Assembly (NCBI RefSeq): GCF_003334385.1
Contig: NZ_QOWN01000017.1
Length of the DNA: 64,000 bases
DNA from: Escherichia coli
Lineage (GTDB): Bacteria > Pseudomonadota > Gammaproteobacteria > Enterobacterales > Enterobacteriaceae
Strand: one strand, 5' to 3'
Part shown: positions 21,113 through 61,388 of the stretch, piece after piece
How positions within the stretch are numbered: the stretch's first letter is position 1
How the letters are laid out: every line of letters begins with the position of its first letter
Program-made: the position numbers and the translations under genes
The notes under the pieces: generated by a model
Database searches by the model: none
The model's input: the letters and a program-made list of their open reading frames with translations, nothing else
Told to the model about the DNA's origin: nothing

Positions 21113-23105
21113 ATGTTTAGGTTGAACCCTTTCGTACGGGTCGGGCTGTGTTTGTCCGCTATTTCTTGTGCATGGCCTGTGTTAGCGGTCGATGATGATG
21201 GCGAAACGATGGTTGTCACTGCATCTTCCGTGGAACAAAATCTTAAAGATGCACCTGCCAGTATCAGCGTCATTACCCAGGAAGACCTGCAGCGAAAACC
21301 GGTACAGAATCTGAAGGATGTCCTCAAAGAAGTGCCTGGCGTACAACTGACGAACGAAGGGGATAACCGTAAGGGCGTTAGTATTCGTGGTCTGGACAGC
21401 AGCTATACCCTGATTCTCGTCGACGGTAAACGCGTGAACTCCCGCAATGCCGTCTTCCGCCACAATGATTTCGATCTGAACTGGATCCCGGTCGATTCCA
21501 TCGAACGTATTGAAGTGGTCCGTGGCCCGATGTCGTCGCTGTACGGTTCCGATGCGCTCGGCGGTGTAGTGAATATCATCACCAAAAAAATCGGTCAGAA
21601 ATGGTCGGGTACCGTTACCGTCGATACCACCATTCAGGAACATCGCGATCGCGGTGACACCTATAACGGTCAGTTCTTTACCAGTGGACCATTAATTGAT
21701 GGTGTGCTGGGAATGAAAGCTTACGGCAGCCTGGCAAAACGTGAAAAGGATGACCCGCAAAACTCAACGACCACCGATACCGGAGAAACGCCGCGTATTG
21801 AAGGATTCTCCAGCCGCGACGGCAATGTCGAATTTGCCTGGACACCGAATCAAAATCACGATTTTACTGCCGGATACGGTTTCGACCGTCAGGATCGTGA
21901 TTCCGACTCGCTGGACAAAAACCGCCTGGAACGCCAGAACTACTCCGTCAGCCATAATGGGCGTTGGGATTACGGCACCAGCGAACTGAAATACTACGGT
22001 GAGAAAGTCGAGAACAAAAACCCTGGCAACAGCAGCCCGATAACTTCCGAAAGCAATACGGTCGACGGCAAATACACGTTGCCGCTGACGGCGATTAATC
22101 AGTTTCTCACGGTTGGCGGTGAATGGCGTCACGACAAACTTAGCGATGCGGTGAACCTGACCGGGGGAACCAGCTCCAAAACGTCTGCCAGCCAGTACGC
22201 GCTGTTTGTGGAAGATGAATGGCGGATCTTCGAGCCGCTGGCGCTGACGACCGGCGTGCGTATGGACGATCACGAAACCTACGGTGAACACTGGAGTCCG
22301 CGTGCCTACCTGGTTTTATAACGCCACCGACACCGTAACGGTGAAAGGGGGCTGGGCGACGGCATTTAAAGCACCTTCTCTGTTGCAACTTAGCCCTGAC
22401 TGGACGAGCAATTCCTGCCGTGGCGCATGTAAGATTGTGGGTAGCCCGGATCTGAAACCAGAAACCAGCGAAAGTTGGGAGCTGGGGCTTTACTACATGG
22501 GTGAAGAAGGCTGGCTGGAAGGGGTTGAATCCAGCGTTACCGTTTTCCGTAACGATGTGAAAGATCGTATCAGCATCAGCCGTACGTCTGACGTCAACGC
22601 TGCACCGGGCTACCAAAACTTTGTTGGTTTTGAGACGGGCGCTAACGGACGGCGCATACCGGTATTTAGCTACTACAACGTTAACAAAGCTCGTATTCAG
22701 GGCGTGGAAACCGAACTGAAAATTCCGTTCAACGATGAATGGAAACTGTCGATCAACTACACCTACAACGATGGTCGTGATGTCAGCAACGGCGAAAACA
22801 AACCGCTATCCGATCTGCCGTTCCATACTGCTAACGGTACGCTGGACTGGAAACCGCTGGCGCTGGAAGACTGGTCATTCTATGTTTCTGGGCACTATAC
22901 CGGGCAGAAACGCGCCGACAGCGCGACGGCTAAAACACCGGGCGGTTATACCATCTGGAATACCGGCGCGGCCTGGCAGGTGACTAAAGACGTCAAACTG
23001 CGCGCAGGCGTGCTGAACCTTGGCGACAAGGATCTCAGTCGTGACGACTACAGCTATAACGAAGACGGACGTCGTTACTTTATGGCAGTGGATTATCGCT
23101 TCTGA
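21113..23105 (+). pseudogene. cirA: cirA (catecholate siderophore / colicin I receptor) interrupted by +1 frameshift in a T-run
   Basis: Two track ORFs (21113..22321 and 22284..23105) in different frames together cover full-length CirA; span is 1993 nt (1992 + 1); ctggTTTTataac at 22311..22321 creates in-frame TAA. Confidence 0.8.
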
Positions 23106-36168: not shown

Positions 36169-37295
<1,127 letters not shown>

Positions 37296-37497
37296 TTAAT
37301 TCGTAAAACGTGCTACCGATCACATTAAGAAATCAGCGCTTATTTTTTCGCTCCCCGGCATTACGCAATGCGCAGCGAACTCAGGCATACATCAAGCATA
37401 GAGAGGGATTGCAGTTTGCAGCAATCCCTCTTTGCAGACCTTTAATCCGCTGACCATAGGCGCTAACATAGCGCCTCATTTTTTTGCGGGTGATGAT

Positions 37498-38445
37498 ATG
37501 CGTGTGTTACTGGCACCGATGGAGGGAGTGCTTGACTCTCTGGTGCGTGAATTGCTGACCGAAGTTAACGACTACGATCTGTGCATCACCGAGTTTGTCC
37601 GCGTGGTGGATCAACTGCTGCCGGTAAAAGTCTTTCATCGCATTTGCCCTGAGCTACAAAACGCCAGCCGGACACCATCTGGTACGCTGGTGCGCGTGCA
37701 GTTGTTAGGTCAGTTCCCACAATGGCTGGCAGAGAACGCCGCCCGTGCGGTGGAGTTAGGTTCCTGGGGCGTGGATCTCAATTGCGGCTGCCCGTCGAAA
37801 ACGGTTAACGGTAGCGGCGGCGGGGCGACGTTACTCAAAGATCCTGAACTCATCTACCAGGGTGCAAAAGCGATGCGTGAAGCTGTACCGGCGCATTTGC
37901 CCGTCAGCGTGAAAGTGCGTCTGGGCTGGGACAGCGGTGAGAAGAAATTTGAAATCGCCGATGCGGTTCAACAGGCTGGCGCTACGGAGCTGGTGGTGCA
38001 TGGGCGGACGAAAGAGCAGGGTTACCGCGCGGAGCATATTGACTGGCAGGCGATTGGCGATATTCGCCAGCGGCTGAATATTCCGGTGATTGCCAACGGT
38101 GAAATCTGGGACTGGCAGAGCGCGCAACAATGCATGGCGATCAGCGGTTGCGACGCAGTGATGATTGGTCGCGGGGCGCTCAATATTCCCAACCTGAGCC
38201 GGGTGGTAAAATATAACGAACCGCGAATGCCGTGGCCGGAGGTGGTTGCTTTGCTGCAAAAATATACCCGTCTGGAAAAGCAGGGCGATACCGGGTTATA
38301 TCACGTTGCGCGGATTAAACAGTGGTTGAGTTATTTGCGTAAAGAATACGATGAAGCAACGGAATTATTTCAGCATGTTCGGGTGTTGAATAATTCCCCT
38401 GATATTGCAAGGGCTATTCAGGCAATTGATATCGAGAAACTCTAA
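37498..38445 (+). CDS. dusC: tRNA-dihydrouridine(16) synthase DusC (315 aa)
   Basis: Start trimmed to ATG ([10 protein letters not shown]...); Dus TIM-barrel motifs. Confidence 0.93.
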
Positions 38446-38817
38446 AAAACCATAGTGATGTTTTTTGACAATGTGTTAGCTCTTTATCAATAGGCCGCAC
38501 GGTTGTTTGGTGGCGTCAAAATTGCCGAGGCGTTCCCTGAAGGCCGGGGCAGCCCACATGGATGTGGGCTGAGGGCGCGTTTTACAGGGATGTTACCTCG
38601 CGCCCGACCCGGTAGCCGTAAGGGATAAGTCGAGGGCACCGCGCAGCGGCGATTTTGTTCGCCAGAGCCCGGGGGTGCAGGGGGCGGCGGCGATTGGCCG
38701 CCCCCTGCGCGCTCCTTGCGCCAGTGATTATATGAAGCAATGCACATGACAGGAGCGCAACAGGATGAGAGACTGAAATATTCTCGTTATTTTCGGACCT
38801 GATGACATTAATTAATT

Positions 38818-38901
38818 TTAAAATATCATCTTAAATACGCCAGTCACCACCAGTAGCCCAATCAGGAAAATAATCAATACAGCCCAGAGTATAATTTTCA
38901 T
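38818..38901 (-). CDS. yohP: Small membrane protein YohP (27 aa)
   Basis: Not in ORF track; direct translation gives MKIILWAVLIIFLIGLLVVTGVFKMIF, matching YohP from memory. Confidence 0.8.
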   Translation of the reverse strand: MKIILWAVLIIFLIGLLVVTGVFKMIF

Positions 38902-39124
38902 TGGCGTTCCTTTATTTGTGAGTGCTGAATAAGTATAGGAAAAAACGAAGCCCTTTGCCGTTATCCATAAACGATTAAGATAAATCGGAAGATATCATTC
39001 ACTTAGTGTATATTTTTCTGGATATGTCGTTTTATTGCCACTGATGTATTGCCACGCGAAACTAAAAAATATATCGCAACACACGGTAATCTCCGCGCAC
39101 CTTTTCTTACCTGATTATTCCCCC

Positions 39125-40561
39125 ATGAATCGTGATTCCTTTTATCCAGCCATCGCCTGTTTTCCGCTGTTACTGATGCTGGCCGGGTGTGCGCCTATGC
39201 ATGAAACCCGCCAGGCGTTAAGCCAGCAAACGCCCGCTGCACAAGTTGACACCGCATTACCCACGGCGCTGAAAAATGGTTGGCCAGACAGCCAATGGTG
39301 GCTGGAGTATCACGATAATCAACTCACTTCCTTAATTAACAATGCACTACAGAACGCACCGGATATGCAGGTGGCTGAACAGCGCATTCAGCTAGCTGAA
39401 GCCCAGGCGAAGGCAGTTGCCACTCAGGATGGTCCGCAGATCGACTTTTCGGCGGATATGGAGCGGCAAAAAATGTCGGCAGAAGGCTTAATGGGGCCGT
39501 TTGCTCTGAACGATCCGGCCGCAGGTACGACCGGCCCGTGGTACACCAACGGTACTTTTGGCTTAACGGCGGGCTGGCATCTCGATATCTGGGGAAAGAA
39601 TCGGGCGGAGGTTACTGCCCGCCTGGGTACGGTTAAAGCACGGGCGGCGGAACGCGAGCAAACCCGCCAATTGCTGGCTGGCAGCGTAGCCCGCCTGTAC
39701 TGGGAGTGGCAAACCCAGGCGGCGTTAAACACGGTCTTGCAGCAAATAGAAAAAGAGCAGAACACCATTATCGCGACCGATCGCCAGCTATATCAGAACG
39801 GGATTACTTCTTCAGTTGAAGGTGTGGAAACCGATATTAATGCCAGCAAAACCCGGCAGCAGCTCAACGATGTCGCGGGGAAAATGAAAATTATTGAGGC
39901 ACGGTTAAGCGCACTTACAAATAACCAGACAAAGTCATTGAAGCTTAAACCGGTCGCGTTGCCGAAAGTGGCAAGCCAGCTTCCTGATGAACTGGGGTAC
40001 TCCTTACTGGCCCGGCGGGCAGATTTGCAGGCGGCGCACTGGTACGTTGAGTCATCGCTAAGCACCATTGATGCGGCAAAAGCGGCATTTTATCCTGACA
40101 TCAACCTGATGGCCTTCCTGCAACAGGATGCGTTGCACTTAAGCGATCTGTTCCGTCATTCCGCGCAGCAAATGGGCGTTACGGCAGGCCTGACGCTACC
40201 CATTTTCGATAGTGGTCGTCTTAACGCCAATCTCGATATCGCAAAAGCCGAAAGCAACTTGTCTATCGCCAGCTACAACAAAGCGGTGGTTGAAGCGGTG
40301 AATGACGTGGCGCGGGCAGCCAGTCAGGTTCAGACACTGGCGGAGAAAAACCAGCATCAGGCGCAAATTGAGCGCGATGCCTTGCGTGTGGTAGGTCTTG
40401 CGCAGGCGCGCTTTAACGCGGGCATCATTGCTGGTTCCCGCGTCAGCGAAGCCAGAATCCCCGCGCTGCGTGAGCGGGCCAATGGCCTGTTATTGCAAGG
40501 GCAGTGGCTGGATGCCTCCATTCAACTCACTGGTGCGTTGGGCGGGGGTTACAAACGCTGA
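39125..40561 (+). CDS. mdtQ: Outer-membrane efflux lipoprotein MdtQ (OMF family), intact 478-aa reading frame
   Basis: Start at ATG (MNRDSFYPAIACFPLLLMLAGC, lipobox LAGC); single uninterrupted ORF. Confidence 0.85.
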   Translation: MNRDSFYPAIACFPLLLMLAGCAPMHETRQALSQQTPAAQVDTALPTALKNGWPDSQWWLEYHDNQLTSLINNALQNAPDMQVAEQRIQLAEAQAKAVATQDGPQIDFSADMERQKMSAEGLMGPFALNDPAAGTTGPWYTNGTFGLTAGWHLDIWGKNRAEVTARLGTVKARAAEREQTRQLLAGSVARLYWEWQTQAALNTVLQQIEKEQNTIIATDRQLYQNGITSSVEGVETDINASKTRQQLNDVAGKMKIIEARLSALTNNQTKSLKLKPVALPKVASQLPDELGYSLLARRADLQAAHWYVESSLSTIDAAKAAFYPDINLMAFLQQDALHLSDLFRHSAQQMGVTAGLTLPIFDSGRLNANLDIAKAESNLSIASYNKAVVEAVNDVARAASQVQTLAEKNQHQAQIERDALRVVGLAQARFNAGIIAGSRVSEARIPALRERANGLLLQGQWLDASIQLTGALGGGYKR

Positions 40562-40613
40562 TGATATGCGCCTTCTATACTTAACGTTTATTCAGCGTTA
40601 AGTGGAGAACTCG

Positions 40614-41375
40614 ATGGCACAGGTTGCGATTATTACCGCCTCCGATTCGGGGATCGGCAAAGAGTGCGCGTTATTACTGGCGCAGCAGGGGTTTGATATT
40701 GGTATTACCTGGCACTCAGATGAAGAAGGGGCAAAAGATACCGCGCGTGAGGTAGTTAGCCACGGCGTACGTGCGGAGATCGTGCAGCTGGATCTCGGCA
40801 ATCTACCAGAAGGGGCACTGGCTCTGGAGAAACTCATTCAACGGCTGGGGCGCATTGATGTGCTGGTGAATAATGCGGGTGCAATGACCAAAGCGCCGTT
40901 TCTTGATATGGCTTTTGATGAGTGGCGCAAGATTTTTACCGTTGATGTCGATGGTGCATTCTTATGCTCGCAAATTGCGGCTCGTCAGATGGTGAAACAA
41001 GGGCAGGGCGGTCGCATCATCAACATTACGTCGGTACATGAACATACGCCGCTGCCGGATGCCAGCGCCTACACAGCCGCTAAACATGCGCTCGGTGGGT
41101 TAACCAAAGCGATGGCGCTGGAGCTGGTCAGGCATAAGATTTTGGTGAACGCAGTCGCGCCTGGGGCGATCGCCACGCCAATGAATGGCATGGATGACAG
41201 CGACGTGAAGCCCGACGCGGAGCCTTCGATTCCCTTGCGGCGTTTTGGCGCAACGCATGAGATTGCCAGCCTGGTGGTGTGGCTTTGTTCGGAGGGCGCA
41301 AATTACACCACCGGGCAGTCGTTGATAGTGGATGGCGGCTTTATGTTGGCGAATCCACAGTTCAACCCAGAATAG
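40614..41375 (+). CDS. yohF: Short-chain dehydrogenase/reductase YohF (253 aa)
   Basis: Start at ATG (MAQVAIITASDSGIGK, Rossmann TGxxxGIG). Confidence 0.9.
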   Translation: MAQVAIITASDSGIGKECALLLAQQGFDIGITWHSDEEGAKDTAREVVSHGVRAEIVQLDLGNLPEGALALEKLIQRLGRIDVLVNNAGAMTKAPFLDMAFDEWRKIFTVDVDGAFLCSQIAARQMVKQGQGGRIINITSVHEHTPLPDASAYTAAKHALGGLTKAMALELVRHKILVNAVAPGAIATPMNGMDDSDVKPDAEPSIPLRRFGATHEIASLVVWLCSEGANYTTGQSLIVDGGFMLANPQFNPE

Positions 41376-41427
41376 CGCAGTGAGGTGCGTGGATATTTCA
41401 TTGGGTAATATTTTGGTCGGCATGAAA

Positions 41428-41497
41428 AGACGCACAAGCGTCGTATCAGGCATGGTACTCCGGATGTCGGATGCGGCGCGAACGCCTTATCCAGGGC
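41428..41497. repeat. REP-like element
   Basis: cggatgtcggatgcggcgcgaacgccttatcc between yohF and yohD. Confidence 0.6.
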
Positions 41498-41504
41498 AAT
41501 GGTT

Positions 41505-42083
41505 TTACGCCTGATGATCCGGCTTTTTCTTCCCGCGTCGTTTCAGCCACCAGCGCACGCCCACCACCAGAACCACGACCAGAATCAACCAGACCCAGTG
41601 CTTCAAATGCTGGTCGAGATTGTGCAACCACGGCGCAATCACCTGACCACCAGCGTAACCAATAGTGGTAAAAATCAACGCCCAGGCAAATGCGCCGAGA
41701 ATATTCAGCGGCAGAAAGATTTTCGGCGGCAGCTGGCTGGCACCAATCAGCGTCGGGCCAATCACCCGAAAGCCATACATAAAGCGCGTACCAATGACAA
41801 ACAGATACGGATGGCGTTGGATAAGTTTCTGCGCCCGCTCAATTTTATCCTGATGTTTCGAGAAACGGCGTAACAGCTTGCCGCCAAACCGCCGCCCGCA
41901 CAGATAGAGCACCTGGTCGCCAATCATGCCGCCAAGCGCCACAGAAAGTACCACCAGCGGGAACTTTAATAGCCCCTGATGCGCCGCAACGCCTCCCAGC
42001 AAAGTCACGGTTTCACCTTCCGCCAGGCTACCGATCACCAGCGCGGCATAACCATATTGTGAGATAAGTGTATTGAGATCCAT
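41505..42083 (-). CDS. yohD: DedA-family inner membrane protein YohD (192 aa)
   Basis: Start trimmed to ATG (MDLNTLISQYGYAALV...). Confidence 0.9.
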   Translation of the reverse strand: MDLNTLISQYGYAALVIGSLAEGETVTLLGGVAAHQGLLKFPLVVLSVALGGMIGDQVLYLCGRRFGGKLLRRFSKHQDKIERAQKLIQRHPYLFVIGTRFMYGFRVIGPTLIGASQLPPKIFLPLNILGAFAWALIFTTIGYAGGQVIAPWLHNLDQHLKHWVWLILVVVLVVGVRWWLKRRGKKKPDHQA

Positions 42084-42252
42084 AGGCCAGTCTGTCTCCC
42101 TTTGGTTGCCAGTAAGCATACACCCTGTGAATCATTCACGCTGAAAAAGGACGTTCATCAGACAGTGAAAATTACATGGGCGAACAAAAAATAATCACAA
42201 GCTGACTTATACTTGAACTGTCAGGTTCATGAACTCACAACAAGGGGGCGGT

Positions 42253-42840
42253 ATGAGCCATGTCTGGGGACTGTTTTCCCATCCCGATCGTGAAATGCAG
42301 GTGATTAATCGCGAAAACGAAACGATTTCTCACCATTACACCCACCACGTTTTGCTGATGGCGGCGATTCCGGTGATTTGCGCCTTCATTGGCACTACAC
42401 AGATTGGCTGGAATTTTGGCGATGGCACTATCCTGAAGTTATCCTGGTTTACCGGACTGGCGCTGGCTGTCTTGTTTTACGGCGTTATGCTGGCTGGGGT
42501 CGCGGTGATGGGGCGGGTCATCTGGTGGATGGCGCGTAATTATCCGCAGCGTCCGTCACTTGCGCACTGCATGGTCTTCGCGGGCTACGTTGCAACTCCG
42601 CTGTTTTTAAGCGGTCTGGTGGCGCTTTATCCACTGGTCTGGTTGTGTGCGCTGGTCGGCACGGTGGCGCTGTTTTACACCGGCTACCTGCTTTACCTTG
42701 GTATTCCGAGCTTCCTGAATATCAACAAAGAGGAAGGCCTTAGCTTCTCTAGTTCGACGCTGGCGATTGGCGTGCTGGTACTGGAAGTGCTGCTCGCCCT
42801 AACCGTTATACTATGGGGCTACGGTTATCGTTTGTTCTAG
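42253..42840 (+). CDS. yohC: Yip1-family inner membrane protein YohC (195 aa)
   Basis: Start trimmed to ATG (MSHVWGLFSHP...). Confidence 0.9.
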   Translation: MSHVWGLFSHPDREMQVINRENETISHHYTHHVLLMAAIPVICAFIGTTQIGWNFGDGTILKLSWFTGLALAVLFYGVMLAGVAVMGRVIWWMARNYPQRPSLAHCMVFAGYVATPLFLSGLVALYPLVWLCALVGTVALFYTGYLLYLGIPSFLNINKEEGLSFSSSTLAIGVLVLEVLLALTVILWGYGYRLF

Positions 42841-50484: not shown

Positions 50485-51403
50485 ATTTAGCCATGTCAGC
50501 AAACTGTTCGGCGCACAAAAAGCCGTTAACGATCTCAATCTCAATTTTCAGGAAGGGAGTTTTTCGGTGCTGATTGGCACATCTGGCTCCGGCAAATCCA
50601 CCACCCTGAAAATGATTAACCGCCTGGTGGAGCATGACAGCGGAGAGATCCGCTTTGCCGGAGAAGAAATTCGCTCGCTGCCAGTACTGGAGTTGCGCCG
50701 CCGGATGGGCTATGCCATTCAATCTATTGGCCTGTTCCCCCACTGGAGCGTGGCGCAAAACATCGCTACCGTGCCGCAATTACAAAAATGGTCGCGGGCG
50801 CGGATTGACGATCGTATCGACGAATTAATGGCGCTACTGGGGCTGGAGTCAAATTTGCGTGAGCGTTATCCGCATCAGCTTTCCGGTGGTCAGCAGCAAC
50901 GTGTGGGAGTGGCGCGTGCACTGGCTGCCGATCCGCAAGTCTTACTAATGGATGAACCTTTTGGCGCACTGGACCCGGTAACGCGCGGCGCGTTGCAACA
51001 AGAGATGACGCGCATTCACCGTTTGCTGGGGCGTACCATTGTGCTGGTCACTCATGATATTGATGAGGCGCTACGGCTGGCAGAACATCTGGTATTGATG
51101 GATCACGGTGAAGTAGTGCAGCAGGGCAATCCGCTGACGATGCTGACTCGTCCGGCGAATGATTTTGTCCGCCAGTTTTTTGGACGTAGTGAACTGGGTG
51201 TGCGCCTGCTTTCGTTACGTAGTGTGGCGGATTACGTGCGTCGCGAAGAACGAGCAGATGGTGAGGCACTGGCAGAAGAGATGACGCTACGCGATGCGCT
51301 CTCTCTGTTTGTTGCGCGGGGATGCGAGGTGCTGCCGGTGGTGAACATGCAGGGCCAGCCTTGCGGCACGCTGCATTTTCAGGATCTGCTGGTGGAGGCG
51401 TAA
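50477..51403 (+). CDS. yehX: Glycine betaine ABC transporter ATPase YehX
   Basis: 308-aa ORF; Walker [10 protein letters not shown], signature LSGGQQQR. Confidence 0.93.
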
Positions 51404-51407
51404 GCGT

Positions 51408-52139
51408 ATGAAGATGTTGCGCGATCCGCTGTTCTGGCTCATTGCTCTGTTTGTGGCGCTGATTTTCTGGCTGCCTTACAGCCAGCCGCTGTTTGCTGCC
51501 TTGTTCCCACAACTGCCACGACCCGTTTATCAGCAAGAAAGTTTTGCAGCTCTGGCACTGGCTCATTTCTGGCTGGTGGGAATTTCGAGTTTGTTTGCGG
51601 TGATCATTGGCACTGGTGCCGGAATTGCTGTCACTCGCCCGTGGGGCGCGGAATTTCGCCCACTGGTGGAAACTATTGCCGCCGTTGGACAGACTTTTCC
51701 GCCCGTCGCAGTGCTGGCGATCGCCGTTCCGGTGATCGGCTTTGGTCTGCAACCAGCGATTATCGCCTTGATCCTTTACGGTGTGCTGCCCGTCCTGCAG
51801 GCGACACTTGCCGGGCTGGGAGCGATTGATGCCAGCGTGACAGAAGTTGCGAAAGGTATGGGAATGAGTCGTGGTCAGCGACTGCGTAAGGTCGAGCTAC
51901 CGCTGGCGGCTCCGGTGATTCTGGCGGGCGTGCGAACTTCGGTGATTATCAACATTGGTACGGCGACGATCGCCTCAACGGTAGGGGCCAGCACGCTGGG
52001 TACGCCCATCATCATCGGGCTTAGCGGATTTAATACCGCGTATGTGATCCAGGGGGCGTTACTGGTGGCACTGGCGGCGATCATCGCAGACCGCCTGTTT
52101 GAAAGGCTGGTGCAGGCGCTTAGCCAGCACGCAAAATAA
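51408..52139 (+). CDS. yehW: Glycine betaine ABC transporter permease YehW
   Basis: 243-aa polytopic ORF. Confidence 0.9.
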
Positions 52140-52227
52140 AGGTATAACCTGCGAGCATGACGCCACCAATTCCGCCTAACGCCATAAACAGGAACAGGGC
52201 GATGACCCCAATTTTAGCTATGCGCAT
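52120..52227 (-). CDS. yohO: Small membrane protein YohO (35 aa)
   Basis: Not in ORF track; translation gives [35 protein letters not shown]; 3' end overlaps yehW by 20 nt (convergent). Confidence 0.75.
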
Positions 52228-52286
52228 AATGCACTCCTTATGTTAACGAAAGGATTGTACAGTAAAGCGCATTTGTTAACGAATCA

Positions 52287-52979
52287 TTAAATGCCGAGTG
52301 GGAAAATATCATGGCCTTGTTCTTGCCAACTGGTGAGTTGCTGCTGTTGGGCGGAGGTTCGATTTTCACCGCACCACACCAGCAATGTACGGCCTTCGAA
52401 TAGTTCAGGGCGTAGTTGATTGAGCGAGTGGGCGAGGACATCAATGCGCCATCCTTGTTGACTGGCAATCCAGCCCTCCAGCCACAGACGGGTGGTATCC
52501 TGAATATTCCAGCCAACCACCAGCGCATCTTTACCCTGTTTTTTACGTGCCGAAGCCAGACAAATGGCGATGTAGTTGATCAGTACGCCGTCGAGGATCG
52601 CCAGCAGCGCCTGGAGAGTCGGTTGTTGGCACTGAAGCCGTCGGCGCAGAGGAATAAACAGATGTGTGGTGAGTGTCTGGGCGGGGTAATCCTGACCGCG
52701 CTCTTTGATCCACGTTCGCAGGCTATGTAGATTGCCGCTTTGCAGGTAAGTCAGTAATGTTTCTTGCTGATCGCGCCAGCCGTTCTGCACATCAACATTT
52801 TCATTACTGAGCAGCATTTTAACTTTGCTGACCTGCACGCCGTTGTCGATCCAGCGTTTGATCTCGCGGATCCGGTCAATATCGGCATCGTTGAACAGCC
52901 GATGACCGCCGTCTGTCCGTTGCGGTTTCAGCAATCCGTAACGCCTCTGCCACGCGCGTAACGTGACAGGGATTAAGGG
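52287..52979 (-). pseudogene. mlrA: mlrA (yehV) MerR-family curli regulator, 5'-truncated by prophage insertion
   Basis: Translation matches MlrA from ...PVTLRAWQRRYGLLKPQRTDGG to the C-terminus; the first ~17 codons are replaced by unrelated sequence with an in-frame stop at 53004..53006 and no start codon. Confidence 0.8.
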
Positions 52980-53008
52980 TAAACTAATTGATTTTGCAAG
53001 TTTTTATT

Positions 53009-54295
53009 TTACCCAGCTTTCTTATGGGGCATACATGGGACACTTTCAGATAGTCTTTTGTTAAGGAGTTCTATCTGTTCGTGATTGTTGTCTTTCATCC
53101 ATGCTCCGTAAACATTGAATACCATTTGTGCGTTTGTGTGGCCCATCTGGCTTGCGATAAAACTAGGATTAGCTCCAGCGGCAAGTGACCAGCATGCATA
53201 AGTATGCCTGGATTGGTACGATTTTCTGTGTCTCAGACCTGCGCGTTTTAAGATACTTGTCCATGACTCCCTGATGGAGTCAACCTTATAGTGCGGTCCG
53301 GAAAACTGCCGCTGTTTTATTACCTGAGGACTAAAAACAAAAGTGCATTTATGCACAGTACTTCTCCCATATTCCCTCTGCTTTACCTCTACAGAATGTT
53401 GCTTTCCAAGCATGGTCATTTCCGCCTGACTTTTAAGAGCATCAATAGCTGGTTGAACCAGATGAATTGTCCTTCCGGTGCCAGCATCGGTTTTTGGTGG
53501 AGTGAATTCGCCAAGTTTTGTATAATTCCTACGGATGGTTATAGTCCTTGCTTTAAGATCTATATCTTCCCATGCCAGCGATACCAGCTCCCCGTGACGA
53601 ATACCCGTGTATACAGCGAGAATCCACAGGTTTTTTGTTTGTTGATGACGGCAAGCCTCAATAAAACGAATAAATTCGTCACGGGTGAGAGGATCTGGTT
53701 TTACCTTGGACTTTTTTAAGGGGGCCAGACCGTTAAATGGGTTTCCTGAGGTATAACCATTATCTGTTGCAAATTGAAACATTCCAGCTATGGTTGTCAT
53801 ATAGTAGTTTACTGTGACCACTGAGCGCCCTTTTATGGAAGAAATCTTTCCATTAGAAAGCTTTTGGTAACCGGTCAACAAATCTCTCCTTGCGAAAAGT
53901 AAATCCTCTTTTGTTATGGATGAAACCAGTTTTTTCTCACCCAACATAGGCAACATGTTTTTAATTACTGACTGGTAACGATTAAGTGCATTCGCACAAA
54001 TCTCAATTTTCTTAAGGTCCAACCATTTTTCCGAAAGTGCCTTAACGGTTATCTCTCTTTTTCCCAGACCAAAGTGTTTCAGGTTAGGGGAATTAGGGAA
54101 CTGTGTAGCGTAGTCGAAACTCCCCATTCTGATTGCAAAACAAACGGAAGTGCGAAGTTCACCTGCGATCTTCCGGTTTTTGGCGGTGTCAGGAACACCG
54201 AGGTTTTCTCTGACACGTTTGCCATTATAGTGAAACCATATACGGAGTGATCCTCCATGGTTTTCAACGCCTGTCGGGTATGATACGTTACTCAT
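53009..54295 (-). CDS. int: Phage integrase (tyrosine recombinase)
   Basis: 428-aa ORF; GGGAGG SD; C-terminal catalytic region with conserved R...HxxR...Y pattern (RHTYACW, final Y in NVYGAWM). Confidence 0.85.
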   Translation of the reverse strand: MSNVSYPTGVENHGGSLRIWFHYNGKRVRENLGVPDTAKNRKIAGELRTSVCFAIRMGSFDYATQFPNSPNLKHFGLGKREITVKALSEKWLDLKKIEICANALNRYQSVIKNMLPMLGEKKLVSSITKEDLLFARRDLLTGYQKLSNGKISSIKGRSVVTVNYYMTTIAGMFQFATDNGYTSGNPFNGLAPLKKSKVKPDPLTRDEFIRFIEACRHQQTKNLWILAVYTGIRHGELVSLAWEDIDLKARTITIRRNYTKLGEFTPPKTDAGTGRTIHLVQPAIDALKSQAEMTMLGKQHSVEVKQREYGRSTVHKCTFVFSPQVIKQRQFSGPHYKVDSIRESWTSILKRAGLRHRKSYQSRHTYACWSLAAGANPSFIASQMGHTNAQMVFNVYGAWMKDNNHEQIELLNKRLSESVPCMPHKKAG

Positions 54296-54328
54296 TAAAC
54301 CTCCCAGACGTCCAGGAGCATTAACAGG

Positions 54329-54583
54329 TTAACCGGAACTTGCATTTTTGGCACCTGGTTGTTTCTGGTTTTCGATCCATCGCATAATTTCTTCGATGTT
54401 GTACAGGCATTCACTGTAATGCCCAGGATCACCTTCTACAGCGTAATGGCGGTATTCTTTTCCCTGCATCCATGACTTTCTTCTGGCCCGCTCGATGGTG
54501 CCGGGCTTTAGCCCTGTTGATGCAATAAGGACTCTCTCCGTACACCATTTGCTGGGGGTTATCTGATAGATGATTGTCTGCAT
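54329..54583 (-). CDS. Putative excisionase / small DNA-binding protein
   Basis: 84-aa basic ORF immediately upstream of int, same strand; resembles excisionase-like phage proteins (from memory). Confidence 0.5.
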   Translation of the reverse strand: MQTIIYQITPSKWCTERVLIASTGLKPGTIERARRKSWMQGKEYRHYAVEGDPGHYSECLYNIEEIMRWIENQKQPGAKNASSG

Positions 54584-54739
54584 GCCAGCCTCATAAAACT
54601 TTCATCCACGGCAGTGGCACCACATTTCAAACATTCGCTTCACAACTTCACGACAGTAGAAGCCATCAACATCTCGCGTCAGGTCATAGTGATTGCCGTA
54701 ACGCTGGTGGACCCATCGTTCAAATGCTTTATTCATTCT

Positions 54740-54982
54740 TTACTTCCTTTTTATGGCTCGTAATTTTTTCAGGTGCTTTTCCTGCTCAGTGTCCGCGAGA
54801 ATTTTGCGGTACTCCTGGTGGTCAATATGTTCGAACAGGCAGTTTAACTCACCAATGCGTACCCGCCCGGATCGTCCGTCCACCCGTCGAAAGAACACTG
54901 AGTGCTCAGTGATGCGAGTAATCACCACGGGGTATCCGGCTCTGTCCGTGTATATCTGACCGCGTTGAATCAAAGCGAACAT
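54740..54982 (-). CDS. Hypothetical phage protein (80 aa)
   Basis: Track ORF 54740..55018; ATG at 54982 preceded by GGGGA. Confidence 0.45.
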   Translation of the reverse strand: MFALIQRGQIYTDRAGYPVVITRITEHSVFFRRVDGRSGRVRIGELNCLFEHIDHQEYRKILADTEQEKHLKKLRAIKRK

Positions 54983-55066
54983 GTGGTTATCCCCATCGAC
55001 AAATCGAGAACACAACAAACGCTGCTGCGAATACCACCCCCAGAGTTACGATTGCATCAGGCCAGC

Positions 55067-56011
55067 TCATTGATTCACCTCCTGCCTGTCGTCCGGCATT
55101 CGCTCACTACAGCTTATCCAACCATCCGGAGTTACCGGAACTTGTGGAATGGCTGTCTGCTCTCGAACGTCATTAGGCGCTATAGGTTCTGCTGCCAACT
55201 GACTGGCATATTTGTTAATGGTAACGATAAGCTCTTGCTCAGCCTCATCCAGACAATCACCGATACCTCGCCTGTCACCGTCAAAATCATCGAAATCGGC
55301 ACGAATCCTGGCAACCTTCAGGATTGCGGACAACACCTCACTAGGAATTGCCGGATAGTTGGTTGACGTTTCCGCGATTTCCCGAAAATTATTGGTTGAC
55401 GAATTCTTGTTTTCCCGAAAGTTTCCGGACTGAAGCATGGCGGCGCGGCAGGCGTTCCATATTTCGGCAGCAATATCGCGCTCGCTATCGGTTAATTTGT
55501 ACGTTGAAACATAGCCAGAGAGCATTTCTACGTTTTCCGGAGTTGCTTCTTCAGGCACTACCGGTGCTGGCTCACGTATTACAGGCTCGCCCATGCGTGA
55601 TTCTCCCTGCGCCTCTTTCACCATGTGGTCATTGATTTGCTCCAGTCGCCGAACGTGCTCATCAGCTTCAAGCGCTCGCCGTTTCCAGATGGACAGGTCT
55701 TCACGAGCGCCCTGATATGCGTCACCGTATTCGCCGTTAAATACTGGCGCTGGCGGGGCGATGCGTCCAAGCAACTTATTTACCTCTTTCGCCATCGCGT
55801 CATATTTATCTAAATAGCGATTAGCTTCTAAGCAGACTCGGTGCATCTGATCTGAGTTAACTCGTTTAACTGGATCTGCTTCCAATGATGCCAGTGCAAT
55901 TCGTGCCAGTTCTTCCGCTTCTTCTGCTGGCAGTACAACGTTGCTACCCGGTCCGTATGTTTCGCGCCACTGCTTGATTGTCAGCAGTCGCCCTTTGGTA
56001 ATAGTGATCAT
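55067..56011 (-). CDS. Hypothetical phage protein (314 aa), shares RIALASLEA(D/E)PV motif with the 56428..56877 product
   Basis: Strong SD AAGAGGA; paralogous N-terminal motif; C-terminal GWISCSERMPDD resembles DUF551-type phage proteins (from memory). Confidence 0.6.
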   Translation of the reverse strand: MITITKGRLLTIKQWRETYGPGSNVVLPAEEAEELARIALASLEADPVKRVNSDQMHRVCLEANRYLDKYDAMAKEVNKLLGRIAPPAPVFNGEYGDAYQGAREDLSIWKRRALEADEHVRRLEQINDHMVKEAQGESRMGEPVIREPAPVVPEEATPENVEMLSGYVSTYKLTDSERDIAAEIWNACRAAMLQSGNFRENKNSSTNNFREIAETSTNYPAIPSEVLSAILKVARIRADFDDFDGDRRGIGDCLDEAEQELIVTINKYASQLAAEPIAPNDVREQTAIPQVPVTPDGWISCSERMPDDRQEVNQ

Positions 56012-56014
56012 GGG

Positions 56015-56203
56015 TTATCCTCTTAGCGCCACAACGCGCACTTCTGGGTCAAAGGATGATGAATTTTCATCTGTAATATCAGCAACATGACCTACAAAGT
56101 CGTTATACTCACACTCTGATTGTTCATAGCCCTGCCAGACCACGACAGCCTCAGGAGGCATTTTTCTGAGCTTGCTGATTAATTGCCTCACCGTCAGTGA
56201 CAT
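56015..56203 (-). CDS. Hypothetical small phage protein (62 aa)
   Basis: Perfect SD AAGGAG in an AAGGAGAGTGATATG junction; acidic C-terminus. Confidence 0.55.
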   Translation of the reverse strand: MSLTVRQLISKLRKMPPEAVVVWQGYEQSECEYNDFVGHVADITDENSSSFDPEVRVVALRG

Positions 56204-56204
56204 A

Positions 56205-56351
56205 TCACTCTCCTTTACCCGCTGCTTTCGCCTGCTCTTTAGCGAGTCGCTCCGCTTCTCTGAAATCCCAATCTACTCGATGTGCTATATCAATTGCAGA
56301 ACGCACGGTCCGTTCAATTAGCGTATCCAGGTTATCAATTGTCATTGCCAT
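56205..56351 (-). CDS. Possible small phage protein (48 aa)
   Basis: ORF below track threshold; helical charged sequence; stop TGA lies in the coupling junction to the next gene; no clear SD. Confidence 0.3.
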   Translation of the reverse strand: MAMTIDNLDTLIERTVRSAIDIAHRVDWDFREAERLAKEQAKAAGKGE

Positions 56352-56427
56352 ATCTGGATTGCGAGATAAAATCTCCGCCCTCTGAATCTGCTAGTTGTTG
56401 CAGGTTTCAAGTAATGAGTTAGCCATA

Positions 56428-56877
56428 TCACTCTCCTTTGATGCCAATGTTTACAGCCTGGCAAGCCTCTTTGAGTACCCAGTCAACAGCGTCTTTCCAT
56501 GCTCCGGTTTCGACTGGCGGATTTTCACGCTTAACCTGTTCATAGAAACGCACTGCTTTAATCAATCCTTCTGATGTCAGTGGCACAGGCGGGGCAGTGA
56601 ATAACGCCTGAATTTCATAGTTCGGTCTGTCGTTGCAATCCTCTTTTGTCGGTACATATTTCCAGTCACCAACCCACGAATCCCCCTGAGAGTCCGTAAC
56701 ACCTTTTTTCACGTAGCGATATCGCCACGCGACTGGCTCTGCTTCCAACGATGCCAGTGCGATACGAAACACATTGGCAAGCAGGCTGCTTGAAGATTGG
56801 TTATCGTGCGCCGGGTCGCTCAGGAAACCAGTGATGAATGATTTAATTTCCGCGTTTTCTCTGGTAATAGTGGTCAT
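56428..56877 (-). CDS. Hypothetical phage protein (149 aa), paralogous motif with 55067..56011
   Basis: SD GAGGA; start overlaps upstream stop (ATGA). Confidence 0.6.
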   Translation of the reverse strand: MTTITRENAEIKSFITGFLSDPAHDNQSSSSLLANVFRIALASLEAEPVAWRYRYVKKGVTDSQGDSWVGDWKYVPTKEDCNDRPNYEIQALFTAPPVPLTSEGLIKAVRFYEQVKRENPPVETGAWKDAVDWVLKEACQAVNIGIKGE

Positions 56878-57083
56878 TTATTAATCCTCAAAACTTTATG
56901 CCCGGGCGCAAAAGCACGTGTTTTGTCTTTGCTTATTCGCCAGCCATCCTTGCGCGCCTCTTTTGCACAGCCAGCCCATGACGTACCGATATACTCACCG
57001 AAGTCTGGCGTTTGATATTTACCATTTGTACACTGGCAACAATCACAGTAGAGATGCATGGTGTAACTTGCGGAAATAGCCAT
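56874..57083 (-). CDS. Small Cys-rich phage protein (69 aa; CDCCQC...C, possible zinc ribbon)
   Basis: Start at internal ATG of track ORF 56874..57191 with perfect SD (AAGGAGCCTGATATG); upstream gene stop sits in the SD spacer. Confidence 0.55.
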   Translation of the reverse strand: MAISASYTMHLYCDCCQCTNGKYQTPDFGEYIGTSWAGCAKEARKDGWRISKDKTRAFAPGHKVLRINK

Positions 57084-57084
57084 A

Positions 57085-57276
57085 TCAGGCTCCTTTAGTG
57101 CGTAAGTGGTTTTTCCAGCGGTTTTGCGCCGCGCTGCGCTTATCTTTGATTCCCTCTCTGGCAATTCCAGAATATAAGTACAACACCACACGGCGATTGC
57201 TAACTCTCAACCACTGGCTGGGATAGCAACGTCTGTATACACGGGAGATAAGCATCTTTGCTTTACGGTTTTTCAT
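57085..57276 (-). CDS. Small basic phage protein (63 aa), tandem paralogue A
   Basis: N-terminus MKNRKAKMLISR...WLRVSNRRV conserved with the adjacent upstream ORF at protein level; ATGA-coupled. Confidence 0.5.
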   Translation of the reverse strand: MKNRKAKMLISRVYRRCYPSQWLRVSNRRVVLYLYSGIAREGIKDKRSAAQNRWKNHLRTKGA

Positions 57277-57455
57277 CTTACTGCGTACCCTTTCTTCCGC
57301 CTGTTCTGTGACGCGCTAGGCTTTTTGCAACAACTGTGCCCCATCACCCCGCAACACCCCGTCAACCTCACTCGTCTGTTACTAATCCTCAACCATCGCC
57401 AGACCCCAACACCGTTTCTGCGAGCTAACAGAATTTTTGCCTTACGGTTTTTCAT
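57273..57455 (-). CDS. Small basic phage protein (60 aa), tandem paralogue B
   Basis: MKNRKAKILLAR...WLRISNRRV; SD AGGAGA; start overlaps upstream stop (ATGA). Confidence 0.5.
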   Translation of the reverse strand: MKNRKAKILLARRNGVGVWRWLRISNRRVRLTGCCGVMGHSCCKKPSASQNRRKKGYAVR

Positions 57456-57628
57456 CGTTTTGTTCTCCTGCGTTTCTTTGCTGCTCGTCGTGCCGCTGCA
57501 ATACCGGTATGGCGGCGCTTTGGTGCCGGGATGATGTTGTCAGCCATCAGGACATGTGGCTTTGCAATTAGCGCAGAAGCCCAAAAACGAGTCGGGTACG
57601 GTAACAAGCCGATACATGCCACACGCAT
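57452..57628 (-). CDS. Small basic phage protein (58 aa)
   Basis: Below track threshold; SD AGGAGG 6 nt before ATG; start overlaps the Ea22-like stop (TAATG) and stop overlaps next start (ATGA). Confidence 0.5.
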   Translation of the reverse strand: MRVACIGLLPYPTRFWASALIAKPHVLMADNIIPAPKRRHTGIAAARRAAKKRRRTKR

Positions 57629-58443
57629 TACTCACCTCCTTTGATGCGAATGCCTGCGGCGCGGATTGCAGCGATGACTTCAGAAACTTTGTATGCCATT
57701 ACCGTTTGGTAATCATCGTGAAAATCTGTTCGATGAAGCATGCTGCTACGTTCCGGGAGCGATATTTCCCGAGCATCCAGTTCCTTAACGCGTTCCTCCA
57801 GTTCGTAGACCCTGCATTGTTCTCTATCATCAATCAGATATAACCCAAGACATTCGCTTTCTACCCAACCGCCAAAATCATGATCGTAACGCTCACATGA
57901 AAACTCACCGTCACCGTCCTTTGTTGGAATGGTGTAACTATCTAATGTGCCACCATATGTCGGCACATTTCCCAATGTTGGATGCTCAATCCACATGAAA
58001 AATGCACGTCCGGTTATTGGGCAAATATCTGGCCGCCATTGGTTACGAACAGCCTTGGTTTCGGATAATTCTTCAGCGTGTTGTTTTACTTCCTCAAGCT
58101 CAACTCTCAGCTTCCCTACCGTTAGCGCAATATCCTCGTTCTCCTGATCGCGGCTTTTGATGTATTGCAGGTTTCTTTCCCGTTCATCCAGCAGTGCCAG
58201 CACGGTAGCCGGGTTAGCCTCTGCTATGAATTCAGCGTTTGCATAAGCCTGAGCATCTGTTTCAACCAGGCAGTTAACGTGACATTCTGCAATTACGCCA
58301 CCGGGTTCTCCTTTCCATTTTTGACAAACAAAAACTCCTGTTAAATTGCCGTGTTGGTTAACAGATGTATGCCCTACGATGTAGCTTCCTTTAGTTGCTT
58401 TCTCTGCCTTTTCACGCAGTGCCTGATAGTCAATCTTGCTCAC
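57628..58443 (-). CDS. Ea22-like phage protein (271 aa)
   Basis: GTG start with SD AAGGAGG; contains LLDERERNLQYIKSRDQENEDIALTVGKLRVELEE and C-terminal GIRIKGGE, which I recall as characteristic of lambda Ea22. Confidence 0.65.
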   Translation of the reverse strand: MSKIDYQALREKAEKATKGSYIVGHTSVNQHGNLTGVFVCQKWKGEPGGVIAECHVNCLVETDAQAYANAEFIAEANPATVLALLDERERNLQYIKSRDQENEDIALTVGKLRVELEEVKQHAEELSETKAVRNQWRPDICPITGRAFFMWIEHPTLGNVPTYGGTLDSYTIPTKDGDGEFSCERYDHDFGGWVESECLGLYLIDDREQCRVYELEERVKELDAREISLPERSSMLHRTDFHDDYQTVMAYKVSEVIAAIRAAGIRIKGGE

Positions 58444-58744
58444 TGGCAGCCTCCTTTGCCGGGATTTCTAACTTTTGAGTGGTTGTATCAAATTCAAACA
58501 ACTTAACCACGTCATCAAACAGGACATAATCACCATCAGGATTTTCAGTCATATCTGCGCCACAATCCTGACCGCACGAGTCGCAACCATCCATATCAAG
58601 CTCGTATCGCTTCAGGTTTGCGATATTTGATAAATTCAGCGCCAGTACAGCCAGGTCATAAACCTCTTCGGCAGTGACATCGCTGTTCAGTCCCATTTCA
58701 TGGCGATATATGATTTTTTCTACTCGTTGTTTTGTGATCGTCAT
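58430..58744 (-). CDS. Hypothetical phage protein (about 104 aa)
   Basis: Track ORF 58430..58768; ATG at 58744 (MTITKQR...); alternative start at 58696 possible; acidic, Cys-containing. Confidence 0.45.
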   Translation of the reverse strand: MTITKQRVEKIIYRHEMGLNSDVTAEEVYDLAVLALNLSNIANLKRYELDMDGCDSCGQDCGADMTENPDGDYVLFDDVVKLFEFDTTTQKLEIPAKEAASEQD

Positions 58745-59015
58745 TTTTCTCTTCACTCCGATATACAAGGATTACTACACCCCCTCTGCTGATTGCGCGA
58801 GCTGGATCCCCTGGTTCCATGCCGTCAATTCCGAAGGCTTCGGAAAACGCATTCATTGCCTTCTGGCGTTCATCCTGCTTACGGCGTTTATTCCATTTTT
58901 TCAGGAACAACAGCGACAGCCACCGTCCGCTGCAGAACACGATGTAAAAATAACCAAGGAGCGCCAGGCCGACATTCAGGGCCGTTTCTATGGTTAGTTG
59001 TGAGTCAGTTGCCAT
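58698..59015 (-). CDS. Small membrane protein (105 aa; one N-terminal TM helix, then basic stretch)
   Basis: Hydrophobic segment LNVGLALLGYFYIVFCSGRWLSLLFL followed by KKWNKRRKQDERQK; 3' end overlaps next gene so true stop/start uncertain. Confidence 0.4.
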   Translation of the reverse strand: MATDSQLTIETALNVGLALLGYFYIVFCSGRWLSLLFLKKWNKRRKQDERQKAMNAFSEAFGIDGMEPGDPARAISRGGVVILVYRSEEKNDDHKTTSRKNHISP

Positions 59016-59253
59016 TTCTTACCTGTTTAAGTAACTGGTTGAACATAACACTTAGGGGATTGCTGTATCCAAACGGCAGATTGTTTACGCAGTACAGAAT
59101 CATTTTGTTTTTTTCTCCAGTTCGTACTATTAACCCATTCCACAATAACCGTGATAATTCATTACTGATAGAAGTTGCGCTTCTTCCAAGTGCGAGGGAT
59201 ATATCTTCTCTACTGCAATCTGGATTTTCCTGGATATACTCGATAACGGTCAT
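59005..59253 (-). CDS. Putative winged-helix DNA-binding protein (82 aa)
   Basis: Track ORF 59005..59295; ATG at 59253 (MTVIEYIQENPDCSREDISLALGRSATSISNELSRLLWNGLIVRTG...) resembles a wHTH. Confidence 0.45.
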   Translation of the reverse strand: MTVIEYIQENPDCSREDISLALGRSATSISNELSRLLWNGLIVRTGEKNKMILYCVNNLPFGYSNPLSVMFNQLLKQVRNGN

Positions 59254-59263
59254 GTGGTCCCTT

Positions 59264-59845
59264 TTACTTAATATCTGTTTCGGATTGCATGCCATGAGTA
59301 TTCATTTCGTTAATAATTTCATCCAGAAGGATTTCAAGCCCTTCTCGACCCATATCTGAAAGAATGAAACCTTTATCAGGGGAAGTAGTGAGCATTTTCT
59401 GATAAAGAAACAGCGCTCTTCCCATTCCTTCAGTTTCGCCGTATTTTTGAATTAAATTCCATTCAATATACTGTTGTAAGGCAAATCGAATGGGGCCGGG
59501 ATATATCGTCATAAACCCATACATCCCGTTATATACCACGGCGTGTTCAGTTGTTCCGTGTTCATTCAGGATATCAATTGTGCCGTTCTTGTCTTCTTCT
59601 TCGTTGATGAATGTCGTCACATACAACCATCGCCACTGAGCAACCTTCATCTCAACCGGAAGTTTACCCAGTAATCCTGCTTCGTCGGCTTGCGCCAGAC
59701 ACTGAAGGATACGTAAACCTCGCACATTAGGAGTATCGAATTCTCCGGCATCCAGACGACGTATGGCGTCGTGATAATCAATCGTCATACTGCCAGTTCG
59801 TATACCATTGGCTGTTGCTTCAGCCTGGAATTCATCGTATTGCAT
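59264..59845 (-). CDS. Hypothetical phage protein (193 aa)
   Basis: SD GAGGA; no recognisable motifs. Confidence 0.55.
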   Translation of the reverse strand: MQYDEFQAEATANGIRTGSMTIDYHDAIRRLDAGEFDTPNVRGLRILQCLAQADEAGLLGKLPVEMKVAQWRWLYVTTFINEEEDKNGTIDILNEHGTTEHAVVYNGMYGFMTIYPGPIRFALQQYIEWNLIQKYGETEGMGRALFLYQKMLTTSPDKGFILSDMGREGLEILLDEIINEMNTHGMQSETDIK

Positions 59846-59850
59846 GATAT

Positions 59851-60039
59851 TTATTCCTCATCTTCATCTTCATCTGCTGGTGCAATAACGTCATATCCTG
59901 CCTTTTCTGCAATAAACAGGAATGTTGAAAGAGTTCCTACAAGTTCATCGTCATGAACATGGCGAATGAATATTACTTTCCCGTTTTTGATGGTCAGCAA
60001 TATTCTGGTTTGTTCGTGTTCTGCTGTTTTCTGATGCAT
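59851..60039 (-). CDS. Small phage protein with acidic tail (62 aa; ...APADEDEDEE)
   Basis: SD GGGAGA; stop 6 nt before next start. Confidence 0.5.
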   Translation of the reverse strand: MHQKTAEHEQTRILLTIKNGKVIFIRHVHDDELVGTLSTFLFIAEKAGYDVIAPADEDEDEE

Positions 60040-60233
60040 TATTATCTCCCGTATGCTTTACGCAGAAATAAGCAGGCAATATGCATGTAATTTTCACCGT
60101 ATTGTGCAATAAGGCAGGCGGTCTTGTGTGATGCCATATTCTTTATAAAAGTCACAATAAAGCCTCCTGTGGATTAAGGTTGTAACAATCCCCGGCGATA
60201 AAACCGCAATAAACGTTCAGGGCATATTTGTTG

Positions 60234-61276: not shown

Positions 61277-61329
61277 ATATCCGCCAACAATTTTAAATTG
61301 AATCAAATCAAGTTATAATTGATGGTGCG

Positions 61330-61358: not shown

Positions 61359-61388
61359 GAAAAAATTGATATCGTATATTTCAGGCAG

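What the first reader, a model, noticed from the sequence alone, without database searches (positions are those of the whole stretch)
39125..40561. mdtQ is an intact 478-aa outer-membrane efflux lipoprotein gene here
In K-12 MG1655, mdtQ (yohG) is annotated as a probable pseudogene, as far as I recall. In this window the frame is continuous from a lipoprotein signal peptide (LAGC lipobox) to the stop. Together with the cirA frameshift and the mlrA prophage, this indicates a non-K-12 background.
Basis: partly seen in the sequence, partly recalled or inferred. Interest (0 to 1): 0.3.

Follow-up and report, generated by a model that had tools for sequence, protein, structure and literature searches.

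The report
Intact mdtQ outer-membrane channel gene
This is the normal, intact form of the E. coli gene mdtQ (an outer-membrane efflux-channel lipoprotein); only the laboratory strain K-12 carries a one-base deletion that breaks it, so the finding is correct but ordinary and already known.

Summary
Window 39125-40561 (+) is one uninterrupted ATG-to-TGA frame of 478 codons, with an LAGC lipobox at residues 19-22. It matches the NCBIfam MdtQ equivalog end to end (1024 bits, cut-off 650) and has two Pfam OEP repeats.

K-12 MG1655 mdtQ (b2139, annotated pseudogene, 1436 bp) differs at two positions. One is a 1-bp deletion in the A-run at window 39272-39276 (A5 here, A4 in K-12). It shifts the frame after Lys50 and stops after 69 aa. 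The other is a synonymous SNP at 40549.

Among 5,426 complete E. coli genomes, about 3,810 carry the exact A5 context. 355 carry the K-12 A4 context, and all 60 best-ranked of those are K-12 or laboratory derivatives. Alleles from four divergent lineages are intact, and nine of the ten pairwise dN/dS values are 0.04-0.10.

The gene is identical to that of natural isolate C9 (WP_001078139.1). The "non-K-12" reading is right, but the background is a very close K-12 relative: 99.95% identity over 53 kb, 18 SNPs and 4 indels.

A 2025 review already states that mdtQ is core-genome conserved despite its pseudogene annotation. Its pump partner and physiological substrates remain unknown.

The parts
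39125..40561 (+). mdtQ (yohG) coding sequence, intact, 478 aa plus TGA stop
   Evidence: ORF. (NF008524 MdtQ equivalog, 1024.4 bits against cut-off 650, aligned 1-478/478). (identical to RefSeq mdtQ of strain C9, WP_001078139.1).
39125..39190 (+). Lipoprotein signal peptide, residues 1-22. Lipobox LAGC is at 39179-39190, the lipidated Cys22 codon TGT at 39188-39190, and Ala at +2.
   Evidence: Read directly from the sequence. Regex lipobox match at residue 19. Processing and sorting to the outer membrane are inferred from the general Lgt/LspA/Lnt/Lol rules.
39272..39276 (+). A5 homopolymer (codons Lys50-Asn51, AAA AAT), the site of the K-12 lesion. K-12 has A4, giving a frameshift and a stop after 69 aa.
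   Evidence: pairwise alignment to MG1655. (allele counts). (A5 in five non-K-12 lineages).
39329..39922 (+). OEP repeat 1 (Pfam PF02321), residues 69-266
   Evidence: i-Evalue 2.2e-17.
40001..40543 (+). OEP repeat 2 (Pfam PF02321), residues 293-473
   Evidence: i-Evalue 9.8e-13.
40549..40549 (+). The only other difference from K-12 within the gene: synonymous Gly475 GGT here, GGG in K-12
   Evidence: T is also found in NRG857C, O157 TW14588, JJ2434 and C9.
40614..41375 (+). yohF (SDR oxidoreductase), same strand, 52 nt downstream. No terminator-like site lies in the gap, so co-transcription is possible but not shown.
38818..38901 (-). yohP (27-aa small membrane protein), divergent upstream neighbour
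   Evidence: Coordinates transferred from the identical C9 annotation.

Best explanation
The window carries the ancestral, functional allele of mdtQ (formerly yohG). This is a chromosomal core gene of E. coli that encodes an outer-membrane factor of the NodT/OprM-type lipoprotein family. Inferred mechanism: the precursor is exported by Sec. Cys22 is lipidated and the signal peptide is cut before it. With Ala at +2, the Lol system sends the protein to the outer membrane. There three protomers, each contributing two OEP repeats, form a TolC-like beta-barrel pore with a long alpha-helical periplasmic tunnel. The tunnel docks onto a periplasmic adaptor and an inner-membrane pump encoded elsewhere in the genome, giving a minor TolC-independent exit route for some cationic toxic compounds. 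The K-12 pseudogene state is a derived, lineage-specific 1-bp deletion in the A5 run. This strain, a very close but distinct relative of K-12, never had it. Shown here: intactness, family membership, the lipobox, the exact K-12 lesion, the allele distribution and purifying selection. Inferred: lipidation, trimeric channel formation, the pump partner and the substrates.
Against: No adaptor or pump gene lies next to mdtQ. The neighbours are yohP, dusC, yohF and yohD, so the partner is unknown. No recognisable Shine-Dalgarno sequence precedes the ATG. Promoter-like sites are not above the shuffled expectation. Expression is therefore unproven and may be low. K-12 and some Salmonella Typhi and Paratyphi A isolates tolerate loss of the gene (PMC9241588). 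The reported drug phenotypes are small. I could not read the original paper (Sulavik et al. 2001), so I could not check whether its parent strain already carried the K-12 frameshift.
Confidence: 0.9

Rival explanations
1. The gene is intact and conserved but is effectively cryptic or dispensable. It would be expressed poorly or only under unknown conditions, and would contribute nothing measurable to efflux because TolC serves all the pumps.
For: There is no Shine-Dalgarno sequence and no promoter signal above chance. No cognate pump lies nearby. K-12 and some Salmonella Typhi isolates lost the gene without obvious cost. The review states that the function is not elucidated and the promoter is unconfirmed.
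Against: dN/dS of 0.04-0.10 against four divergent lineages, together with retention of a 478-codon frame in essentially all non-K-12 genomes sampled, argues for continued selection.
Confidence: 0.12
2. MdtQ is a channel, but its real job is not drug efflux. It might export an endogenous metabolite, siderophore or peptide, possibly linked to the co-oriented yohF oxidoreductase. It might also matter mainly as a surface receptor for a phage or colicin, which would explain sporadic loss.
For: The mdtQ-yohF pair is conserved with a 52-nt gap and no terminator-like site in all loci examined. TolC-family proteins are known phage and colicin receptors. Independent truncations occur in Salmonella Typhi and Paratyphi A.
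Against: There is no direct evidence. yohF has no known link to export. The only published phenotypes are drug susceptibilities.
Confidence: 0.1
3. The intact frame is an artefact: either a sequencing or assembly error in a homopolymer, or a K-12 derivative in which the frameshift reverted.
For: The lesion site is a homopolymer, a typical place for indel errors. The surrounding 53 kb is 99.95% K-12-like.
Against: A5 is the majority allele, found in 3,810 genomes and in every divergent lineage checked. The window differs from MG1655 by 18 SNPs and 3 other indels. It is 100% identical over 25 kb to natural isolates C9, WP7-S17-ESBL-04 and cM8a.
Confidence: 0.01

Closest known systems
MdtQ (YohG) of E. 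coli: RefSeq WP_001078139.1, NCBIfam NF008524, UniProt P33369 (K-12, reconstructed) and Q8X659 (O157:H7)
   Same: It is this gene. The DNA is identical to mdtQ of strain C9. It differs by 3 aa from the O157 allele. The synteny dusC-yohP-mdtQ-yohF-yohD is the same.
   Different: It differs from the K-12 reference only by having A5 instead of A4 at 39272-39276 and T instead of G at 40549.
MdtP (YjcP), outer-membrane subunit of the MdtNOP system, the E. coli paralogue
   Same: It belongs to the same NodT-type lipoprotein family and aligns over residues 17-477. The same modest drug-susceptibility phenotype is reported for null mutants.
   Different: The score of 356 bits is below the MdtP cut-off of 597, so it is a paralogue and not a member. 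mdtP sits in an operon with its adaptor and pump, whereas mdtQ stands alone.
VceC of Vibrio cholerae (PDB 1YC9)
   Same: It is the best solved homologue, E=1.1e-39 over residues 51-477. From my own knowledge, not tested here: VceC serves the VceAB pump, an EmrAB-like MFS system, which hints at an MFS-type partner for MdtQ.
   Different: It comes from a different genus and shows only moderate sequence conservation in the printed alignment (identity not computed). vceC is encoded together with its pump.
OprM, CusC, CmeC, MtrE and OprN (RND-type outer-membrane factor lipoproteins) and TolC
   Same: They share the two-repeat OEP architecture, and all except TolC share the N-terminal lipid anchor. 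A predicted TolC-like fold is reported in the literature.
   Different: These are distant relatives, with E-values of 1e-24 to 1e-16. The TolC family model scores 54 bits, well below its cut-off of 225. TolC has no lipobox.

Membership tests
MdtQ equivalog (NCBIfam NF008524) | Whole-protein score above the curated cut-off, with end-to-end alignment | tested here: met
   1024.4 bits against cut-off 650, aligned 1-478 of 478.
MdtQ equivalog (NCBIfam NF008524) | Orthologous chromosomal position (dusC-yohP-mdtQ-yohF-yohD) | tested here: met
   Collinear with MG1655 and with C9, NRG857C, O157 TW14588, JJ2434 and S1-ESP-02-A.
NodT-type efflux outer-membrane lipoprotein (TIGR01845) | Family model score above cut-off | tested here: met
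   274 bits against cut-off 210.05, residues 16-475.
NodT-type efflux outer-membrane lipoprotein (TIGR01845) | N-terminal signal peptide ending in a lipobox with an invariant Cys | tested here: met
   L19-A20-G21-C22 follows a hydrophobic stretch, with Ala at +2. Lipidation itself was not tested.
NodT-type efflux outer-membrane lipoprotein (TIGR01845) | Two tandem OEP repeats (PF02321) | tested here: met
   Residues 69-266 (2.2e-17) and 293-473 (9.8e-13).
NodT-type efflux outer-membrane lipoprotein (TIGR01845) | Trimeric beta-barrel plus alpha-helical tunnel fold | not tested
NodT-type efflux outer-membrane lipoprotein (TIGR01845) | Works with a periplasmic adaptor and an inner-membrane transporter | tested here: inconclusive
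   No adaptor or pump gene lies within the neighbouring genes. Orphan outer-membrane factors such as TolC are also encoded away from their pumps, so absence in cis does not exclude the function.
MdtP family (NF007390) | Score above cut-off | tested here: not met
   356.2 bits against cut-off 597. It is a paralogue only.
TolC family (TIGR01844) | Score above cut-off | tested here: not met
   54.2 bits against cut-off 225.15.
K-12-type mdtQ pseudogene allele | A4 run causing a frameshift after Lys50 | tested here: not met
   The window has A5.

The most novel reading that the evidence does not exclude
Because this strain is nearly isogenic with K-12 across the region, at 99.95% identity, yet keeps mdtQ intact, it could serve as a natural control. 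It might reveal that MdtQ is a working TolC-independent exit channel. The partner might be an MFS or EmrAB-like pump or the MdtNO pump, as its closest solved homologue VceC suggests. Decades of K-12-based efflux genetics would have missed such a pathway because K-12 lacks the protein.
Probability: 0.15. Interest if true: 0.4.

Novelty: already known. Interest (0 to 1): 0.05.

Why it matters
It matters little beyond bookkeeping. It serves as a strain marker: this is not K-12, although it is very close to it. It is also a reminder that K-12 is the exception for mdtQ, so K-12 experiments cannot inform on MdtQ function. The gene's partner pump and physiological substrates remain open questions, but nothing in this window bears on them in a new way.

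Tried and rejected
- **Promoter and terminator scan, 38400-41500.** Two promoter-like sites were found against 2.5 expected, and seven terminator-like sites against 4.0 expected. None lies in the mdtQ-yohF gap, so the scan says nothing about transcription.
- **Rfam, 37000-42500.** No RNA family reached its gathering score.
- **Repeat search upstream of mdtQ.** Only one weak 19-nt direct repeat appeared, inside the published TRIP1c region.
- **Sulavik et al. 2001.** This is the source of the mdtQ null phenotype, and it is not held in the library. I could not check which parent strain was used.
- **Strain identification.** No complete genome matches the whole window. The prophage end reaches at most 82% coverage. 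The left 24 kb reaches at best 99.9% identity, and most of the top-listed matches are 7 bp shorter than the query.
- **Searches deliberately not run.** Family and fold are not in doubt, and the gene is already named in RefSeq.
- **Rejected readings.** Sequencing artefact or K-12 revertant (see rivals). Horizontal acquisition is also rejected, because GC is 55.0% and GC3 is 59.5%, the same as the neighbours.

Full report
**1. The observation**

Window 39125-40561 (+) is a single open frame of 1437 nt, running from ATG to TGA and encoding 478 aa. The mechanical ORF list extends it upstream to a TTG at 39035, which would give 508 aa. However, the NCBIfam MdtQ model aligns residues 1-478 to model positions 1-478 from the ATG. 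RefSeq uses the same start in the identical gene of strain C9.

The N-terminus, MNRDSFYPAIACFPLLLMLAGC, carries a lipobox L19-A20-G21-C22 at nt 39179-39190, followed by Ala at +2.

**2. What it is**

- It scores 274 bits on TIGR01845, the NodT-type efflux outer-membrane subunit (cut-off 210).
- It is below cut-off for MdtP (356 against 597), for CusC-type proteins and for TolC (54 against 225).
- Pfam finds two OEP repeats, at residues 69-266 and 293-473.
- Fifteen distinct solved outer-membrane factors match at E-values from 1e-39 to 2e-16, most over nearly the whole mature protein. The best is Vibrio cholerae VceC (1YC9), followed by OprM, CmeC, SilC, CusC, OprN, MtrE and OprJ.
- GC (55.0%) and GC3 (59.5%) match the neighbouring genes dusC, yohF and yohD, so this is a native gene.

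**3. The K-12 lesion**

NC_000913.3 annotates mdtQ (b2139) as a pseudogene at 2227323-2228758, 1436 bp. Global alignment with the window gene gives exactly two differences (confirmed).

- One A is missing from the A-run that occupies window 39272-39276. The window reads CTG AAA AAT GG and K-12 reads CTG AAA ATG G.
- There is a T/G difference at 40549, which is synonymous (Gly475, GGT against GGG).

In K-12 the frame shifts after Lys50 and terminates after 69 aa. The rest of the protein continues intact in another frame but without a signal peptide.

**4. Which allele is the exception**

The locus is present in 5,422 of 5,426 complete E. coli genomes, always on the chromosome.

- A 71-nt query centred on the run, in the window's form, matches at 99% or better in 3,810 genomes. 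At this query length that means no gap and no mismatch in the aligned part.
- The 70-nt K-12 form matches at 99% or better in 355 genomes. All 60 best-ranked are MG1655, W3110-type, DH1, DH5alpha, C600, J53, NCM3722, AG100 and similar laboratory strains.
- The remaining roughly 1,240 genomes have nearby SNPs, so these counts do not classify them. The one such lineage I examined (S1-ESP-02-A) has A5. So do NRG857C, O157 TW14588, JJ2434 and C9.
- One A4 genome labelled as a pig-farm isolate (T177A) is 100% identical to MG1655 over 2,250 nt, and RefSeq marks its gene "frameshifted". It is most simply a K-12 derivative.

A5 is therefore ancestral, and A4 is a derived lesion of the K-12 lineage.

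**5. Selection**

Four alleles at 97.5-98.8% identity to the query region (16-38 nucleotide differences within the gene) are all intact 1437-bp genes. Against the window, dN/dS is 0.037-0.095. Among all ten pairs it is 0.037-0.28. The frame is being maintained by purifying selection.

**6. Background of the window**

Window 1-52976 aligns in reverse orientation to MG1655 2267875-2214909 at 99.949% identity, with 18 mismatches and 4 indels. The indels are:

- a 6-bp insertion at 10292-10297;
- an extra T at 22317 that breaks cirA;
- the mdtQ A;
- 1 bp at the alignment edge, 52971.

Collinearity stops 44 nt into mlrA. A prophage follows, with an integrase ORF at 53009-54295. Window 27001-52000 is 100% identical to the natural isolates C9, WP7-S17-ESBL-04 and cM8a, and almost identical to E. 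coli C and WG5.

It is an unusually close relative, and no complete genome in the collection matches the whole window.

**7. Surroundings**

- *Upstream.* dusC ends at 38445. Next comes the published TRIP1c repeat, about 38489-38761 (PMC10888264), which explains the spurious antisense ORF at 38487-38747. Then comes yohP at 38818-38901 (-).
- *Downstream.* yohF starts 52 nt after the mdtQ stop on the same strand, with no terminator-like site in between. Co-transcription is possible but unproven.
- *Pump partner.* No adaptor or pump gene is nearby.
- *Expression signals.* The promoter scan is at chance level, there is no evident Shine-Dalgarno sequence, and no Rfam family is present.

**8. Mechanism**

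Shown here: the sequence features of a lipoprotein outer-membrane factor.

Inferred from established knowledge of this family:
- Sec export, Lgt/LspA/Lnt lipidation at Cys22 and Lol sorting to the outer membrane (Ala at +2);
- trimerisation into a beta-barrel and alpha-tunnel channel;
- docking to an adaptor-pump pair encoded elsewhere.

The nearest solved homologue, VceC, serves an EmrAB-like MFS pump (my own knowledge). The paralogue MdtP sits with MdtN and MdtO. An MFS-like or MdtNO-like partner is therefore a reasonable guess, but untested.

**9. What is already known**

A 2025 review (PMC11762307) makes the following points.
- MdtQ (formerly YohG) is one of three TolC homologues in E. coli.
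- It is encoded on its own.
- Its function is not elucidated.

Independent truncations in Salmonella Typhi and Paratyphi A are also described (PMC9241588). The exact protein is already in RefSeq as WP_001078139.1.

**10. Verdict**

The feature is the ordinary wild-type state of a known gene. Novelty: already known. Interest: low.

Noticed in passing
window 21113-23105 (+), lesion at 22317: cirA is split into ORFs of 402 aa and 273 aa by one extra T in a T-run (window ctggttttataac, K-12 ctggtttataac). This creates TAA at 22319-22321. Most of the top-listed genomes for window 1-24000 give matches 7 bp shorter than the query, which equals this +T plus the 6-bp insertion, so both may be rare or private to this strain. 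This was not checked base by base. A homopolymer sequencing error is not excluded.
   Followed up: partly
window 52976-64000; integrase ORF 53009-54295 (-): Collinearity with K-12 ends 44 nt inside mlrA (yehV), and a lambdoid-type prophage follows (integrase, Rha-family regulator, ead/Ea22-like genes). The prophage is mosaic. No complete E. coli genome covers more than 82% of window 51000-64000. The remaining mlrA ORF (52287-52934, 215 aa) lacks its N-terminal end.
   Followed up: partly
window 10292-10297: There is a 6-bp in-frame insertion (GAAGCT) relative to MG1655, in the psuG/psuK region. It is consistent with the 7-bp shorter matches among the best hits in the collection.
   Followed up: no
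window about 38489-38761: The GC-rich repeat cluster between dusC and yohP corresponds to the published TRIP1c repeat, a reported hotspot for chromosomal rearrangements (PMC10888264). It produces a spurious 86-aa antisense ORF at 38487-38747.
   Followed up: partly
L008 (NZ_CM125447.1, strain T177A): A genome deposited as a pig-farm isolate is 100% identical to K-12 MG1655 over the 2,250-nt mdtQ locus, including the K-12-specific frameshift. It is probably a K-12 laboratory or recipient strain and not a wild isolate.
   Followed up: partly
window 10529-11788 and 13719-14978: The two nucleoside-transporter paralogues (psuT and nupX) cross-match at about 79% identity. This is an ordinary paralogue pair, also present in K-12.
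   Followed up: no
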